A stretch of 64,000 nucleotides of DNA from the human T2T-CHM13v2.0 reference genome, Homo sapiens: NCBI RefSeq assembly GCF_009914755.1, contig NC_060926.1; one strand, given 5' to 3'. Positions 27,529 through 42,474 of this stretch are shown piece by piece; position 1 is the first letter of the stretch, and each line of letters starts with the position of its first letter. The notes below the pieces were generated by a model, which was given only the letters and a program-made list of their open reading frames with translations, was not told the DNA's origin and ran no database searches. The position numbers and the translations under genes were made by a program.

Positions 27529-27751
27529 AAATGGTGGTGAATCTACAGAAACAATTTAGCACACTGGTCGATTCAACAGCAACTGCTGGAAAAAAAAGCC
27601 CTTCAAGTTTTCAGTTCAACTGGACTGAAGAGGACACTGATAGAACGTGTTTCCATGGACACAGCCTTCAGGGAGTCCTGAAAGAGAAAGGCCAATCACT
27701 GCTGACTAAGAATTCATTATATTGGCTTAGTACACAGAAATTCTGCAGATG
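27529..27751 (+). CDS. TAF1B: TAF1B penultimate coding exon (probably 14): EMVVNLQKQFSTLVDS...LSTQKFCR
   Basis: Long pyrimidine tract then ggttccag acceptor, TG|gtaata donor, 223 nt; ORF track 27531-27755. Confidence 0.96.
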
Positions 27752-34487: not shown

Positions 34488-34755
34488 GCCAGGTACGGTG
34501 GCTCATGCCTGTAATCTCAACACTTTGGGAGGCTGAGGTGGGTGGATCACCTGAGGTCAGGAGTTCGAGACCAGACTGGCCAACATGGTGAAACCCCATC
34601 TCTACTAAAAATACAAAAATTAGCCGGGCATGGTGGTGCATGCCTGTAGTCCCAGCTACTTGGGGGGCTGAGGCAGGAGAATCACTTGAACCTGGGAGGC
34701 AGAGGTTGCAGTCAGCGGGGTGAGACTCTGTCTCAAAAAAAAAAAAAAAAAAAAG
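34488..34755 (+). mobile_element. AluSx-like with internal right-arm deletion
   Basis: Jumps from ttgcagtcagcg to gtgagactc; TSD gagattggcagtta. Confidence 0.85.
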
Positions 34756-35698
34756 AGAGATTGGCAGTTAACATTAGTTAGAGATTTGATCAGATTCAGG
34801 TTTAACTTTTTTTTTATATATATACTTTAAGTTCTAGGGTACATGTGCACAACCTACAGGTTTGTTACATAGATACATGTGCCATGTTGGTTTGCTGTAC
34901 CCATCAACTGGTCATTTACATTAGGTATTTCTCCTAATGTTGTCCCTCCCCCTGCCCCCCACCCCACGACAGGCCCCAGTGTGTGATGTTCCCCACCCTG
35001 TGTCCAAGTGTTCTCATTGTTCAATTCCCATTATGAGTGAGAACATATGGTGTTTGGTTTTCTGTCCTTGTGATAGTTTGCTCAGAATGATGGTTTCCAG
35101 CTTCATTCATGTCCCTGCAAAGGTCATGAACTCATCCTTTTTTATAGCTGCATAGTATTCCATGGTGTATATGTGCCACATTTTCTTAATCCAGTCTATC
35201 ATTGAAGGACATTTGGGTTGGTTCCAAGTCTTTGCTATTGTGAATAGTGCCACAGCAAACATACATGTGCATGTGTCTTTATAGTAGCATGATTTATAAT
35301 CCTTTGGGTATATACTCAGTAAGGGGATCACTGGATCAAACTGTATTTCTAGTTCTAGATCCTTGAGGAATTGCCACACTGTCTTCCACAATGGTTGAAC
35401 TAGTTTACAGTCCCACCAATAGTGTAAAAGCATTCCTGTTTCTTCACATCCTCTCCAGCACCTGTTGTTTCCTGACTTTTTATTGATTGCCATTCTAACT
35501 GGTGTGAGATGGTATCTCATTGTGCTTTTGATTTGCATTTCTCTGATGGCCAGTGATGATGAGCATTTTTTCATGTGTCTGTTGGCTGCATAAATGTCTT
35601 CTTTTGAGAAGTGTCTGTTCATATCCTTTGCTCACTTTTTGATGGGGTTGTTTTTTTCTTGTAAATTTGTTTAAGTTCTTTGTAGATTCTGGATATTA

Positions 35699-36578
<880 letters not shown>

Positions 36579-36581
36579 TTA

Positions 36582-37061
<480 letters not shown>

Positions 37062-37074
37062 TCATTGGTTCTGT

Positions 37075-37389
<315 letters not shown>

Positions 37390-37415
37390 TTTGGTTCTGT
37401 TTATGTGATGGATTA

Positions 37416-37508
<93 letters not shown>

Positions 37509-37511
37509 TCA

Positions 37512-37775
<264 letters not shown>

Positions 37776-40700
37776 TTATTGCCTCAATTTCAGAACCTGT
37801 TATTGGTCTATTCAGAGATTCAGCTTCTTCCTGGCTTAGTCTTGGAAAGGTGTACATGTCCAGGAATTTATTCATTTTTTCTAGATTTTCTAGTTTATTT
37901 GCATAGAGGTATTTATAGTATTCTCTGATGGTAGTTTGTATTTCTGTGGGATCGGTGGTGATATCCCCTTTATCATTGCATCTATTTGATTCTTCTCTTT
38001 TCTTCTTTATTAGTCTTGCTAGCGGTCTATCAATTTTTTTCATCTTTTCAAAAAACCAGCTCCCGGATTCATTGATTTTTTTTAAGGGTTTTTTGTGTCT
38101 GTATCTCCTTCAGTTCTCCTCTGATCTTAGTTATGTCTTGCCTTCTGCTAGCTTTTGAATTTGTTTGCTCATGCTTCTCTAGTTCTTTTAATTGTGATGT
38201 TAAGATGTCGATTTTAGATCTTTCCTGCTTTCTCTTGTGGGCATTTAGTGCTATAAACTTCCCTCTACACACTGCTTTAAATGTGTCCCAGAGATTCTGG
38301 TATGTTGTGTCTTTGTTCTCATTGGTTTCAAAGTACATCTTTATTTCGTTATTTACCCCATAGTCATTCAGGAACAGGTTGTTCAGTTTCCAAGTAGTTG
38401 TGCGGTTTTGAGTGAGTTTCTTAATCCTGAGTTCTAATTTGATTGCACTGTGGTCTGAGAGACCATTTGTTGTGATTTCTGTTCTTTTACATTTGCTGAG
38501 GAGTTCTTTACTTCCAACTATGTGGTCAATTTTGGAGTAAGTGTGATGTGGTGCTGAGAAGAATGTATATTCTGTTGATTTGGGGTGGAGAGTTCTATAG
38601 ATGTCTATTAGGTCCACTTGGTGCAGAGCTGAGTTCAAGTCCTGGATATCTATCCTTGTTAACCTTCTGTCTCGTTAATCTGTCTAATACTGACAGTGGG
38701 TTGTTAAAAGTCTCCCATTATTATTGTGTGGGAGTCTAAGTCTTTGTAGGTCTCTGAGGACTTGCTTTATGAATCTGAGTGCTCCTGTATTGGGTGCCTA
38801 TATATTTAGGATAGTTAGCTCTTCTTGTTGAATTGATCCCTTTACCATTATGTAATGGCCTTCTTTATTTCTTTTGATCTTTGTTGGTTTAAAGTCTGTT
38901 TTATCAGAGACTAGGATTGCAACCCATGCTATTTTTGCTTTCTATTTGCTTGGTAGATCTTCCTCCATCCCTTTTTTTTGAGCCCATGTGTGTCTCTGCA
39001 TGTGAGATGGGTCTCCTGAATACAGCACACTGATGGGTCTTGACTCTTTATCCAATTTGCCAGTCTGTGTCTTTTAATTGGGGCATTTAGCCCATTTACA
39101 TTTAAGGTTAATATTGTTATGTGTGAATTTGATCCTGTCATTATGATGTTAGCTGGTTATTTTGCCTATTAGTTAATGCAGTTTCTTCCTAGCCTTGATG
39201 GTCTTTACAATTTGGCATGTTTTTGCAGCGGCTGATACCGGTTGCTCCTTTCCATGTTTAGTGCTTCCTTCAGGAGCTCTTGTAAGGCAGGCCTGGTGGT
39301 GACAGAATCTCTCAGCATTTGCTTGTCTGTAAAGGATTTTATTTCTCCTACACTTATGAAGCTTAGTTTGGCTGGATATGAAATTCTGGGTTGAAAATTC
39401 TTTTCTTTAAGAATGTTGAATATTGTCCCCCACTCTCTTCTGGCTTGTAGAGTTTCTGCCGAGAGATCAGCTGTTAGTCTGATGGGCTTCCCTTTGTGGG
39501 TAACCGACCTTTCTCTCTGACTGCCCTTAACATTTTTTCCTTCATTTCAACCTTGGTGAATCTGACAGTTATGTGTCTTGGGTTGCTCTTCTCAAGGAGT
39601 ATCTTTGTGTGGTGTTCTCTGTATTTCCTGAAGTTGAATGTTGGCCTGCCTTGCTAGGTTGGGGAAGTTCTCCTGGATAATATCCTGCAGAGTGTTTTCC
39701 AACTTGGTTCCATTCTCCCCGTCACTTTCAGGTACACTAATCAAATGTAGATTTGGTCTTTTCACATAGTCCCATATTTCTTGGAGGCTTTGTTTGTTTC
39801 TTTTTACTTTTTTCTCTAAACTTCTCTCTTACTTTATTTCATTAATTTGATCTTCAATCACTGATACCCTTTCTTCCACTTGATCGAATCGGCTATTGAA
39901 GCTTGTGCATGTGTCACGTAGTTCTCATGCCATGGTTTTCAGCTCCATCAGATCATTTAAGGTCTTCTCTACGCTGTTTATTCTAGTTAGCCATTCGTCT
40001 AATCTTTTTTCAAGGTTTTTAGCTTCCTTGCGATGGGTTTGAACATCTGCCTTTAGCTCAGAAAAGTTTGTTATTGCCGACCTTCTGAAGCCTACTTCTG
40101 TCAGCTCGTCAAAGTCATTCTCCATCCAGCTTTGTTCCGTTGCTGGCAAGGAGCTGCAATCCTTTGGAGGAGAAGAAGTGCTCCAGTTTTTAGAATTTTC
40201 AGCTTTTCTGCTCTGGTTTCTCCCCACCTTTGTGGTTTTATCTACCTTTGGTCTCTGATGTTGGTGACCTACAGATGAGGTTTTGTTGTGGATGTCCTTT
40301 TTGTTGATGTTGATGCTACTCCTTTCTGTTTGTTAGTTTTCCTTCTAACAGTCAGGTCCCTCAGCTGCAGGTCTGTTGGAGTTTGCTGGAAGTCCACTCC
40401 AGACCCTGTTTGCCTGGGTATCACCAGTGGAGGCTGCAGAACAGCAAATATTGCTGCCTGATCCTTCCTCTGGAAGCTTTGTCCCAGGGGGCACCTGCCT
40501 GTATGAGGTGTCAGTCGGCCCTTACTGGGAGGTGTCTCCCAGTTAGGCTGCACAGGGGTCAGGGACCCACTTGAGGAGGCAGTCTGTCCGTTCTCAGAGC
40601 TCAAACACCATGCTGTGAGAACCACTGCTTTCTTCAGAGCTGTCAGACAGGGACGTTTAAGTCTGCAGAAGTTTCTGCTGCCTTTTGTTCAGCTGTGTGC

Positions 40701-40808
40701 TGCCCCCAGAGGTGTAGTTTACAGAGGCAGCAGGCCTTGCTGAGCTGCGGTGGGCTCTGCCCGGTTTGAGCTTCCTGACCGCTTTGTTTACCTACTCAAG
40801 CCTCAGCA

Positions 40809-41054
40809 ATGGTGGACGCCCCTCCGCCTGCCAGGCTGCTGCCTCGCAGGTCAATCTCAGACTGCTGCACTAGCAGTGAGCAAGGCTCCGTGGGCGAGGG
40901 ACCAGCTGAGCCAGGCTCAGGTTATAATCTCCTGGTGTGCCGTTTGCTAAGACCATTGGAAAAGCGCAGTATTTGGGTGGGAGTGTCCCGATTTTCCAGG
41001 TACAGTCTGTCATGGCTTCCCTTGGCTAGGAAAGGGAAATCCCTTCCCAGGTGA
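40809..41054 (+). CDS. L1 ORF0 homologue (81 aa) in the L1 5'UTR antisense-promoter region
   Basis: MVDAPPPARLLPRRSISDCCTSSEQGSVGEGPAEPGSGYNLLVCRLLRPLEKRSIWVGVSRFSR aligns colinearly with L1HS ORF0 as recalled (MAGAPPPASLPPCSLISDCCASNQRDSVGVGPSEPG...RVGVTRFSR); context gcaATGg. Expression is not shown. Confidence 0.75.
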   Translation: MVDAPPPARLLPRRSISDCCTSSEQGSVGEGPAEPGSGYNLLVCRLLRPLEKRSIWVGVSRFSRYSLSWLPLARKGKSLPR

Positions 41055-41715
41055 GGTGATGCCCCGCCCTGCTTCGGCTCACCCTCCGTGGGCTGCACCC
41101 ACTGTGCAGCCAGTCCCAGTGAGATGAACCAGGTACCTCAGCTGGAAATGCAGAAATCACCCGTCTTCTGATCATGCTGGGAGCTGCAGACCAGAGCTGT
41201 TCCTGTTCAGCCATCTTGTAACGGAAGGCTTTCCTATTTTAAAATAATGGAAATTGCTTGGTAAACTCTTCTCTCACAATACATATAGTATTGCAAGCTA
41301 CATTATAAAGTCTAGTGTCTTATTTTGGGTGGAAGTCAGGAATTATTTGTTTTCTTTAGTTTGTTTTAGAAATATGTTCAGAATCTCTCCCTGTGTGCTT
41401 TTGTTTGCCTTGACCATGGTAAGAAAGTGGAGTGGTGGCCCATCTGGAGTGAAGAAACTTTGAGCAAAGAGTTGAAGGACCAGCTCTTAGCACCACCTGT
41501 GGCCCTTGTGTGGTGGCCATGGACAGTGTGAACATGTTTTCCTTTGTGCAGTTAAGGAGTTAACAAATTCTTCTAAGTTTCCTTCCAGCTCAGGGTCCTG
41601 TTTTAAGCCTAACCATATATATTTGCTAAGTTATTTGGGGGGATGTTCAGGGGTTAGTGTGTGCATTTCTTGGTTACCATCTAAAGATAAATTCTTTTTT
41701 CTTTTTCCCTTCTAG

Positions 41716-41917
41716 CTATTGTACACATGTGACAACCTATGAAGAATCAAATTATTCTCTGAGTTATCAGTTTATACTAAATCTCTTCTCCTTCCTGCTC
41801 AGAATAAAGACTTCCCTTCTCCATGAAGAAGTGAGCTTAGTTGAGAAGAAACTTTTTGAGAAAAAATACAGTGTAAAAAGAAAGAAATCAAGATCCAAGA
41901 AAGTGAGACGACATTGA
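41716..41917 (+). CDS. TAF1B: TAF1B terminal coding exon (probably 15): CYCTHVTTYEESNYS...KRKKSRSKKVRRH*
   Basis: ctttttcccttctag acceptor, phase 2 matches previous exon (TG|C), TGA at 41915-41917. Confidence 0.96.
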
Positions 41918-42340
41918 GAAAATGAAATAGAAACTTTCTGGAAAAATATTTTAATAGTGATAATAACATCAGATTTTAATATAACATTCCAGAGAATTGT
42001 GGAAAATACTGCATATATATGTATAGACTCTGACACATATTTACATATATATCAAGTGTGCTTAGAAAAATGTATATTGTAAAGCAGGTGAGCTTCATTT
42101 GATTTTATTTTTCAGAGTATGAACATTCTAAGAGAAAGTTAAAACAATAGCAAATTGTATAATTGTATCCAGAAATGTATACTCATCGTATTTTAAAGCT
42201 AAATTTATTTTTTAAACTAGATCCCTTCATTATTCTTTATGCCCCAGAGTAAATCCCAGATGGATCAAAGATCTAAACATAATCTTTCATATGTAAAAAT
42301 ATAAAAGTATTAGTAGAAAACAAATATGAATGCTTTGATG
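41918..42340 (+). other. TAF1B: TAF1B 3'UTR (end approximate)
   Basis: AT-rich sequence after the stop; only variant poly(A) signals seen (AGTAAA 42248, TATAAA 42300). Confidence 0.55.
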
Positions 42341-42474
42341 ATCTTGGAATGGCAAAGTCAATTTTTGCAGCATATGGTGGACAAAGAAATAATTTCTTTA
42401 ATGTATCAATAGCTCTTGCAAAGCAAAAGGAAAAAAGCAAACTGAGTAAGGGATATGAAAAATTAGTTTTCTGA

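What the first reader, a model, noticed from the sequence alone, without database searches (positions are those of the whole stretch)
40809..41917. Intact L1 ORF0 with two donors both in frame with the TAF1B terminal exon: predicted ORF0-TAF1B fusion proteins
Seen: the L1's 5'UTR lies ~500 bp upstream of the last TAF1B acceptor (41716). On the + strand it has an open 81-codon ORF0 homologue with a strong Kozak ATG (gcaATGg, 40809), although ORF1 and ORF2 are broken. Donor TCCAG|gtacag (exon end 40999, 191 nt from ATG) and donor CCCAG|gtgagg (exon end 41050, 242 nt) are both phase 2, the phase the TAF1B exon needs. AG|C gives Ser, then YCTHVTT...KRKKSRSKKVRRH*, so the products are 130 aa and 147 aa and carry TAF1B's basic, NLS-like tail. 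The second donor appears to reach phase 2 through a ~14-nt deletion relative to the L1PA consensus as I recall it. Known: the primate L1 antisense promoter drives ORF0 and ORF0-exon fusions. Inference: this locus could make a stable fusion mRNA (no premature stop) when the L1 is demethylated, e.g. in pluripotent cells, germline or tumours.
Basis: partly seen in the sequence, partly recalled or inferred. Interest (0 to 1): 0.85.

Follow-up and report, generated by a model that had tools for sequence, protein, structure and literature searches.

The report
Dead L1 could fuse ORF0 to TAF1B
An old, dead L1 retrotransposon in the last intron of TAF1B keeps a small antisense reading frame and two splice signals that could be joined in frame to the gene's last exon, but this is an ordinary example of a well-known arrangement and no spliced product has been seen.

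Summary
There is an 81-codon ATG ORF at 40809-41054 (+) in GCAATGG context. Donors follow 40999 (CAG|GTACAG) and 41050 (CAG|GTGAGG), 191 and 242 nt from the ATG, both phase 2. Joined to the TAF1B terminal acceptor at 41716 they give open products of 130 and 147 aa. A 14-nt deletion at about 41043 puts the second donor in phase. The host is a full-length, shattered L1 (about 34809-41225, minus strand), labelled L1PA6 in a published table.

None of this exceeds what the family gives. The ATG, its context and the first donor at nt 191 are family-typical. 15 of 29 relatives keep the frame open through donor 1. The same deletion cuts this subfamily's usual 110-codon frame to 81.

The locus is already listed as unvalidated L1 chimera ID_214_215 (Pinson 2022, Table S2), with 8 read pairs in 11 brain and glioma samples. 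All mates lie in the intron, so the RNA seen is unspliced and may be TAF1B pre-mRNA. An EST catalogue of 988 L1-antisense transcripts lacks this junction. The fusion is a legitimate but untested prediction: an ordinary new member of a known kind.

The parts
34809..41225 (-). Full-length (about 6.4 kb) dead L1, labelled L1PA6 by RepeatMasker in a published table. Its 3' poly(A) appears as a T run at about 34808-34817 on the + strand, and its 5' end lies at about 41220-41225.
   Evidence: RVT_1 hit at E 7.4e-26 on 36579-37061, minus strand. The reading frames are shattered into pieces of 84-211 aa. The T run and L1 3' end are visible. Alignments to relatives run to 41208-41225. Pinson Table S2 gives L1PA6 at hg19 10069586-10073421, minus strand, which is window 37390-41225.
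40809..41054 (+). ORF0 homologue of 81 codons plus TGA, antisense to the L1 5'UTR. Codons 1 to about 78 are homologous to the family ORF0. The tail is shifted by the 14-nt deletion.
40806..40812 (+). Start context GCAATGG (G at -3, G at +4). It is the first ATG for any + strand start between 40613 and 40808.
   Evidence: The same heptamer occurs in 26 of 29 relatives and in 4 of 4 young copies that have an ATG.
40997..41005 (+). Donor 1, CAG|GTACAG, exon end 40999, 191 nt from the ATG, phase 2. It matches CAG|GTAAGT at 6 of 9 positions and lacks G at +5.
   Evidence: It sits at nt 191 in 27 of 29 relatives, and the exact 9-mer occurs in 16 of 29. Three of four young copies have CAG|GTGCGT at the same place.
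41048..41056 (+). Donor 2, CAG|GTGAGG, exon end 41050, 242 nt from the ATG, phase 2. It matches at 7 of 9 positions. The ORF's TGA (41052-41054) lies inside it.
   Evidence: GT is present in 29 of 29 relatives, but at nt 256 (phase 1) in 22 of 29 and in phase 2 in only 2 of 29.
41041..41046 (+). Site where 14 nt present in nearly all relatives are missing. This moves donor 2 from phase 1 to phase 2 and shifts the ORF into its stop.
   Evidence: The 28-nt junction occurs at only 2 places in the genome at up to 3 mismatches: this locus and one unrelated copy on C8.
40620..40808 (+). Zone where an antisense-promoter start site would have to lie for the ORF0 ATG to be included. This is inferred, not shown.
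   Evidence: The antisense promoter's start ranges of +300..+500 and +150..+250 are quoted in PMC9396940 section 5. The ATG lies at about L1 position 417 in this copy, about 436 with the deleted bases added back.
41716..41917 (+). Coding part of the TAF1B terminal exon (exon 41716-42349). It contributes one base of the junction codon plus 66 residues ending in a basic tail. Its acceptor follows an all-pyrimidine tract.
   Evidence: The hub annotation gives the exon. Searches show 18 of 18 pyrimidines at -20..-3. There is no Pfam family and no PDB chain at E up to 1.
40941..41652 (+). Extent of published candidate L1 chimera ID_214_215. The L1 side is 40941-41222 and the unique side 41226-41652. 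It is unspliced and lies wholly upstream of the TAF1B acceptor.
   Evidence: PMC9396940 Table S2. Coordinates were converted with hg19 = window + 10032196, checked on two anchors: gene end 10074545 = 42349, and EST start 10059725 = exon start 27529.

Best explanation
A full-length, coding-dead L1PA6 element sits antisense in the last intron of TAF1B. Its 5'UTR still carries the family's antisense ORF0 start, an 81-codon open frame and the family's two GT donors.

Donor 1 is in phase 2 by family design. A rare 14-nt deletion brought donor 2 into phase 2 as well. Either donor, if spliced to the strong TAF1B terminal acceptor, would therefore give an open ORF0-TAF1B tail reading frame of 130 or 147 aa.

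This is a latent, sequence-permissive configuration of the known L1 antisense-promoter / ORF0 chimera class, not a demonstrated gene product. The + strand RNA recorded over it is low-level and unspliced. Any fusion mRNA is most likely rare or absent in ordinary tissues.

Shown: the anatomy, the homology, the phases and the deletion. Inferred: antisense-promoter activity at this copy, donor use, translation, and any function.
For: - ORF, donors, phases and products.
- ORF0 homology and a shared start context: (38-40 of 63-64 aligned residues identical, GCAATGG in 4 of 4 young copies). The donor-1 position at nt 191 is shared by 3 of the 4.
- Family-typical features among 29 relatives: ATG in 26 of 29; donor 1 at nt 191 in 27 of 29; ATG with the frame open through donor 1 in 15 of 29; donor 2 at nt 256 in 22 of 29.
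- Deletion.
- Dead L1.
- L1PA6 label and 8 unspliced chimeric read pairs in 11 samples, not validated.
- In the same paper, 31 of 32 tested L1PA1-7 chimeras started in the antisense-promoter regions, and 1509 such chimeras involve about 17% of L1PA1-7 copies with a 5'UTR. Antisense initiation here is therefore plausible and unremarkable.
- ORF0 is described as 71 aa, with about 3200 genic loci and 57 observed exon fusions, in PMC4908685 passages citing Denli 2015.
- No upstream ATG lies between 40613 and 40808, and there is no AATAAA or ATTAAA between 40500 and 41802.
Against: - No spliced L1-to-exon junction was found. All mates of the published chimera lie in the intron.
- The EST catalogue of 988 L1-antisense transcripts lists TAF1B only for another element.
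- The hub's RefSeq table has no L1-initiated TAF1B exon.
- Four full-text searches pairing TAF1B with L1 terms gave 0 papers each.
- The + strand is the TAF1B sense strand, so the recorded reads may be pre-mRNA.
- Donor 1 is weak (6 of 9 matches, no G at +5).
- Much of the published start range (+150..+250 and +300..about +436) lies downstream of the ATG and would omit it.
- Three other pyrimidine-rich AG sites (41370, 41589, 41594) lie before the TAF1B acceptor.
- I could not see RNA-seq, CAGE or Ribo-seq data, other haplotypes or ape orthologues.
Confidence: 0.8

Rival explanations
1. The fusion is real. In cells where this L1's antisense promoter fires (pluripotent, germline, placental or tumour cells), transcripts start upstream of 40809 and splice from 41050, or less often 40999, to 41716. 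They are then translated into a 147- or 130-aa nuclear ORF0-TAF1B-tail protein.
For: - The frames are open and the stop lies in the last exon.
- The start context is strong, and it is the first ATG for starts between 40613 and 40808.
- Donor 2 matches the consensus as well as or better than 6 of the 8 annotated donors scored in the window, and the terminal acceptor has the strongest tract.
- L1PA6 is described as carrying the antisense promoter (PMC9396940 introduction).
- Chimeric reads exist at this locus.
- ORF0-exon fusions are a described class.
Against: - No junction evidence exists. The reads seen are unspliced and few (8 pairs in 11 samples) and the entry is not validated.
- The junction is absent from the EST catalogue.
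- CpG observed/expected is 0.34 in an old, roughly 10% diverged 5'UTR.
- Only 57 of about 3200 genic ORF0 loci had observed fusions.
Confidence: 0.12
2. There is no antisense-promoter activity at this copy. All + strand RNA over 40941-41652 is TAF1B pre-mRNA or a retained intron, and the ORF is a neutral relic that is never translated.
For: - The L1 is intronic and antisense to the gene, so gene-sense pre-mRNA mimics an L1 chimera.
- The samples were Ribo-Zero total RNA.
- The read mates lie in the intron only.
- The paper's title and abstract say that L1 chimera levels follow the host locus.
- The 5'UTR is decayed.
Against: In that paper 31 of 32 tested L1PA1-7 chimeras did not amplify with a primer upstream of the antisense promoter, and 201 of 204 had long-read 5' ends in the 5'UTR.
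Confidence: 0.45
3. The donors act inside TAF1B pre-mRNA rather than after an L1 start. A cryptic acceptor in the antisense L1, such as 40693, pairs with 40999 or 41050 and exonises a 307- or 358-nt L1 piece. That would shift the frame of the last exon.
For: There are pyrimidine-rich AG sites at 40337, 40352 and 40693 upstream of the donors. Both candidate exon lengths are 1 mod 3, from arithmetic. Exonisation of antisense intronic L1 is a described phenomenon, seen here as the title of reference 17 in PMC4908685.
Against: No transcript evidence was seen, and the hub's table lists no such TAF1B exon. These are consensus-level sites only.
Confidence: 0.05

Closest known systems
L1 ORF0 and ORF0-proximal-exon fusions (Denli et al. 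2015, Cell; not held here, known to me through passages in PMC4908685, PMC7746726 and PMC9396940)
   Same: - It is an antisense ORF in the 5'UTR of a primate L1PA element.
- It has the same GCAATGG start context.
- It shares 38-40 of 63-64 aligned residues with the 70-71-aa ORFs of young copies.
- Its donor at nt 191 matches three of those four copies.
- A second donor lies downstream.
   Different: - The frame here is the older type, which among its closest relatives usually runs 110 codons. It is cut to 81 by a rare 14-nt deletion that also changes the phase of donor 2.
- No transcription, splicing or translation has been shown for this copy.
L1 chimeric transcripts from the L1 antisense promoter (Criscione 2016, PMC4908685; Pinson 2022, PMC9396940)
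   Same: This very locus is entry ID_214_215 of Pinson's Table S2: L1PA6, gene TAF1B, chimera/L1 strands +/-, 5'UTR present.
   Different: The entry is unspliced, supported by 8 read pairs, and flagged not validated and not in the EST literature.
Exonisation and cryptic splicing of intronic antisense L1 sequence
   Same: It would use the same GT sites in the antisense 5'UTR, and the element lies in an intron in the gene's sense direction.
   Different: It needs an upstream acceptor and the host promoter rather than an L1 start. It would disrupt TAF1B's frame rather than create an ORF0 fusion (arithmetic).

Membership tests
L1 ORF0 | Lies antisense in the 5'UTR of a primate-specific L1 (L1HS, L1PA2-8) | tested here: met
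   The ORF lies about 170-417 nt from the 5' end of a minus-strand L1. The 516-nt query has 7049 first-look candidates in the genome, of which 40 were scored, and the non-self hits are 84-88% identical. The body gives an RVT_1 hit. Pinson Table S2 labels it L1PA6.
L1 ORF0 | ATG in a strong context at the homologous position | tested here: met
   GCAATGG is found here, in 26 of 29 relatives, and in 4 of 4 young copies that have an ATG; 2 of the 6 copies fetched had none.
L1 ORF0 | Peptide homologous to the 71-aa ORF0 of young L1 | tested here: met
   Residues 1-64 align to 70-71-aa ORFs of L033, L034, L035 and L037 with 38-40 of 63-64 aligned residues identical. Those copies were found with the ORF0 reverse primer printed in PMC7746726. 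The 71-aa length is as stated in PMC4908685.
L1 ORF0 | Two splice donors that allow fusion to downstream exons (this feature is recalled from Denli 2015 and was not read here) | tested here: met
   GT is present at both family positions. Donor 1 is at the same nt 191 as in 3 of 4 young copies. Donor use was not tested.
L1 ORF0 | Transcribed from the antisense promoter and translated | not testable with these tools
   No expression, CAGE, Ribo-seq or proteomic data were on hand.
L1 chimeric transcript / ORF0-exon fusion | RNA that starts in the L1 antisense-promoter region | tested here: inconclusive
   Chimera ID_214_215 has 8 read pairs and LCT_validated = FALSE. Gene-sense pre-mRNA would look the same.
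L1 chimeric transcript / ORF0-exon fusion | Observed splice junction from the L1 5'UTR to a gene exon, in frame | tested here: inconclusive
   The frame is compatible. No junction was found in Criscione's 10 supplementary files, in Pinson's Table S2 entry, or in the one held supplementary file of PMC10760525. Raw data and Denli's tables were not seen.
L1PA6 subfamily | Subfamily assignment by diagnostic positions | not tested
   The label is taken from RepeatMasker as printed in Pinson Table S2. My own data show only 88-91% identity over aligned columns to the best relatives and 82-83% to young copies, which fits an old L1PA.

The most novel reading that the evidence does not exclude
In L1-derepressed cells this copy's antisense promoter fires upstream of 40809. 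Donor 2, put in phase by a nearly locus-private 14-nt deletion, splices to TAF1B exon 15. The result is a stable mRNA and a 147-aa nuclear or nucleolar ORF0-TAF1B-tail protein. Such a protein could serve as a tumour- or pluripotency-restricted antigen, or could interfere with the RNA polymerase I factor SL1 through the TAF1B tail.
Probability: 0.08. Interest if true: 0.4.

Novelty: new member of a known kind. Interest (0 to 1): 0.15.

Why it matters
If the fusion were expressed, it would add one more ORF0-exon chimera to a class with dozens of observed and thousands of potential members. It would also offer a candidate tumour-restricted junction peptide.

It would not change what is understood about L1 or TAF1B. 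The piece of TAF1B involved is a 66-residue tail with no recognised domain.

The useful result here is calibration. The ORF, the start context and the donor-1 phase are inherited family features, and about half of the sampled relatives keep them. An in-frame match to a downstream exon is therefore expected at roughly one in three suitably placed copies and is not evidence of function.

Tried and rejected
- Denli 2015 by DOI: not held. What I say about it rests on other papers' passages or on recall.
- Full-text searches returned 0 papers each for TAF1B + 'L1 antisense promoter', TAF1B + L1PA, TAF1B + LINE-1 + 'chimeric transcript' and TAF1B + ORF0. These searches cover main texts only.
- Lanciano 2024 supplements (PMC10879037): the two TAF1B passages shown, of 5 occurrences in a file that was cut when stored, both concern a different L1PA4 at hg38 chr2:9860962-9867093.
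- PMC10760525 (long-read CAGE): 0 occurrences of TAF1B in the one held supplementary file.
- Paper reading closed. The supplements of PMC10619931 and PMC12791003 and the ORF0/splice-donor papers listed were therefore not read, and they may bear on whether this junction has been seen.
- Pfam on the ORF0 peptide and on several L1 pieces: nothing above cut-off except RVT_1.
- Pfam and PDB sequence searches on the TAF1B tail: nothing at E up to 1.
- I asked whether the 14-nt deletion marks a sub-lineage. This was rejected. Only one other genomic place carries the junction at up to 3 mismatches, and that copy is only 84.9% identical overall, less than the 29 relatives.
- No quantitative splice-site model was on hand, so donor strength is given only as matches to CAG|GTAAGT (a recalled motif) beside the window's annotated donors.
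- I did not fold or model the fusion. It would not have changed the verdict.

Full report
**1. What is there**

The + strand at 40809-41054 carries an 81-codon ATG ORF under the standard code. Its start sits in gcaATGg, with G at -3 and G at +4.

Two GT sites follow. CAG|GTACAG has its exon end at 40999, and CAG|GTGAGG has its exon end at 41050. They are 191 and 242 nt from the ATG, both 2 mod 3.

The coding part of the TAF1B terminal exon, 41716-41917 in the hub annotation, is 202 nt, so it needs two bases from upstream. A script that joined the pieces by coordinates gave open frames of 130 aa and 147 aa ending at the TAF1B stop.

**2. The host element**

On the minus strand, from a T run at about 34808-34817 to about 41220-41225, lies a full-length L1 of about 6.4 kb.

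- One fragment, 36579-37061, matches RVT_1 at E 7.4e-26.
- The coding region is shattered. The largest stop-to-stop pieces are 84-211 aa.
- A published table labels it L1PA6 (Pinson 2022, PMC9396940, Table S2).
- A 516-nt query from its 5'UTR has 7049 first-look candidates in the window's own genome. Forty were scored, and the 39 non-self hits are 84-88% identical by the tool's measure. The 29 fetched copies are 88-91% identical over aligned columns.
- Four young copies are 82-83% identical.
- CpG observed/expected in 40700-41222 is 0.34, so the CpG island of the promoter has largely decayed.

**3. Is the ORF an ORF0?**

PMC7746726 prints the reverse primer used to clone ORF0. Its L1-specific part with the stop occurs 856 times in the genome (428 on each strand).

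I fetched six of those copies. Four have an ATG-started ORF of 70 or 71 aa in the same GCAATGG context; two had no ATG. The window's ORF aligns to these over residues 1-64, with 38-40 of 63-64 aligned residues identical. In three of the four copies CAG|GTGCGT stands at the same nt 191. The 71-aa length agrees with PMC4908685. Homology to ORF0 is therefore met by test, not only by recall.

**4. How special is it?**

Among the 29 best-scoring relatives, L002-L030, which are the top of 7049 candidates and so a biased sample:

| Feature | Count among 29 relatives |
|---|---|
| ATG at the homologous place | 26 |
| Donor-1 GT present | 28 |
| Donor 1 at nt 191 | 27 |
| ATG plus a frame open through donor 1 | 15 |
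| 110 codons read from the homologous start | 10 (9 with ATG) |
| Donor-2 GT present | 29 |
| Donor 2 at nt 256 (phase 1) | 22 |
| Donor 2 in phase 2 | 2 |

In the window, 14 nt are missing at about 41043. Twenty-six of the 29 relatives show a 13-14-nt gap there. Of the other three, L005 shows 11 nt and L024 3 nt, while L006's 14-nt gap nets 12 nt by donor distance.

This deletion does two things. It moves donor 2 to nt 242, which is phase 2, and it shifts the frame into the TGA that lies inside donor 2. 'Intact ORF0' is therefore true against the 71-aa young form but not against the 110-codon frame usual among this copy's closest relatives.

The deletion junction occurs at only two places in the genome at up to 3 mismatches. 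One is this locus. The other is a copy on C8 that is only 84.9% identical overall, so it is not a close relative.

The start, the frame and donor 1's phase are all inherited. The phase match to the exon is therefore about a one-in-three event, and donor 2's match is the outcome of one indel.

**5. Features that bear on expression**

- 40809 is the first ATG for any start between 40613 and 40808. The only other + strand ATGs in 40400-41060 are 40503, 40610 (two codons) and 41012 (five codons, in another frame).
- No AATAAA or ATTAAA lies between 40500 and 41802.
- The TAF1B acceptor has 18 of 18 pyrimidines at -20..-3, the best of all AG sites listed.
- Donor 2 matches CAG|GTAAGT at 7 of 9 positions, equal to or above 6 of the 8 annotated donors scored in the window.

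Against it:
- Donor 1 matches only 6 of 9 positions and lacks G at +5.
- Three other pyrimidine-rich AG sites (41370, 41589, 41594) precede the acceptor.
- The published start ranges for the antisense promoter are +300..+500 and +150..+250 (PMC9396940 section 5). The ATG lies at about position 417 of this copy, so much of those ranges would yield RNAs without the ATG.

With the stop in the last exon, a spliced mRNA would escape classical nonsense-mediated decay. That is an inference from the established exon-junction rule.

**6. What is in print**

*Pinson 2022, Table S2.* I saw part 1 with the header and the passage with this row. The row reads:
- chimera ID_214_215, hg19 chr2:10073137-10073848 (+);
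- L1 side 10073137-10073418;
- unique side 10073422-10073848;
- L1PA6 at 10069586-10073421 (-), gene TAF1B;
- CLIFinder reads 1, 0, 0, 1, 3, 1, 0, 1 in eight gliomas and 1, 0, 0 in three control brains;
- 5'UTR present TRUE, validated FALSE, EST literature FALSE.

I converted coordinates with hg19 = window + 10032196. This was checked on two anchors: gene end 10074545 = 42349, and EST start 10059725 = exon start 27529. The chimera then spans 40941-41652. The non-L1 mates therefore all lie in the intron, upstream of the acceptor at 41716. The RNA seen is unspliced, and because the + strand is the gene's sense strand it may be pre-mRNA.

Section 5 of that paper, read whole, reports that 31 of 32 tested L1PA1-7 chimeras began in the antisense-promoter regions. 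It also reports 1509 chimeras involving about 17% of such elements. Antisense initiation here is therefore plausible but common.

*Criscione 2016.* I saw passages and a search of the 10 supplementary files. TAF1B is named once, for EST T96948 and an L1MC3. That EST starts exactly at exon 14 (window 27529), not in this L1.

*Other sources.*
- The two Lanciano 2024 supplement passages shown concern another L1PA4.
- One held supplementary file of PMC10760525 has no TAF1B.
- Four full-text searches pairing TAF1B with L1 terms found no paper.
- Denli 2015 is not held.
- Paper reading closed, so further supplements could not be checked.

**7. The TAF1B part**

The 66 residues from the last exon match no Pfam family and no PDB chain at E up to 1. 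The fusion would carry a tail with no recognised domain. The NLS-like reading of the basic run is an inference.

**8. Verdict**

The most likely state is a latent, permissive configuration of an old dead L1. I put about 0.12 on a real spliced fusion mRNA in some derepressed setting, and less on a detectable protein. The novelty class is a new member of a known kind, and interest is low.

Noticed in passing
window 27529-27751 and 41716-41880: Criscione 2016's supplement lists EST T96948 (hg19 chr2:10059725-10074076) as an L1MC3 antisense-promoter transcript of TAF1B. Its start maps exactly to the first base of annotated exon 14. It therefore looks like an ordinary 5'-truncated TAF1B cDNA, not a transcript started by an L1.
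   Followed up: partly
window 40976-41181: The hub's table lists a RefSeq 'silencer' element that lies entirely within roughly the first 250 nt of the L1 5'UTR and covers both ORF0 donors. I could not see what experiment defined it.
   Followed up: no
window 41589-41652: The unique side of Pinson's chimera ends at window 41652, exactly at a GGG|GTTAGT site (6 of 9 donor matches). Pyrimidine-rich AG sites lie at 41589 and 41594. A 59-64-nt cryptic exon is conceivable, but this may be coincidence.
   Followed up: no
window 41803-41808: An AATAAA hexamer lies inside the coding part of the TAF1B last exon, 109 nt before the stop codon.
   Followed up: no
window 41004 and the 29 relatives (L002-L030): The older L1PA-type copies have one extra base just after donor 1 compared with young copies. 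That is why their antisense frame often runs to 110 codons instead of 71. Ten of the 29 sampled old copies still read 110 codons.
   Followed up: partly
window 34600-34760: An Alu-like element with an A-rich tail ends about 50 nt before the L1's 3' end.
   Followed up: no
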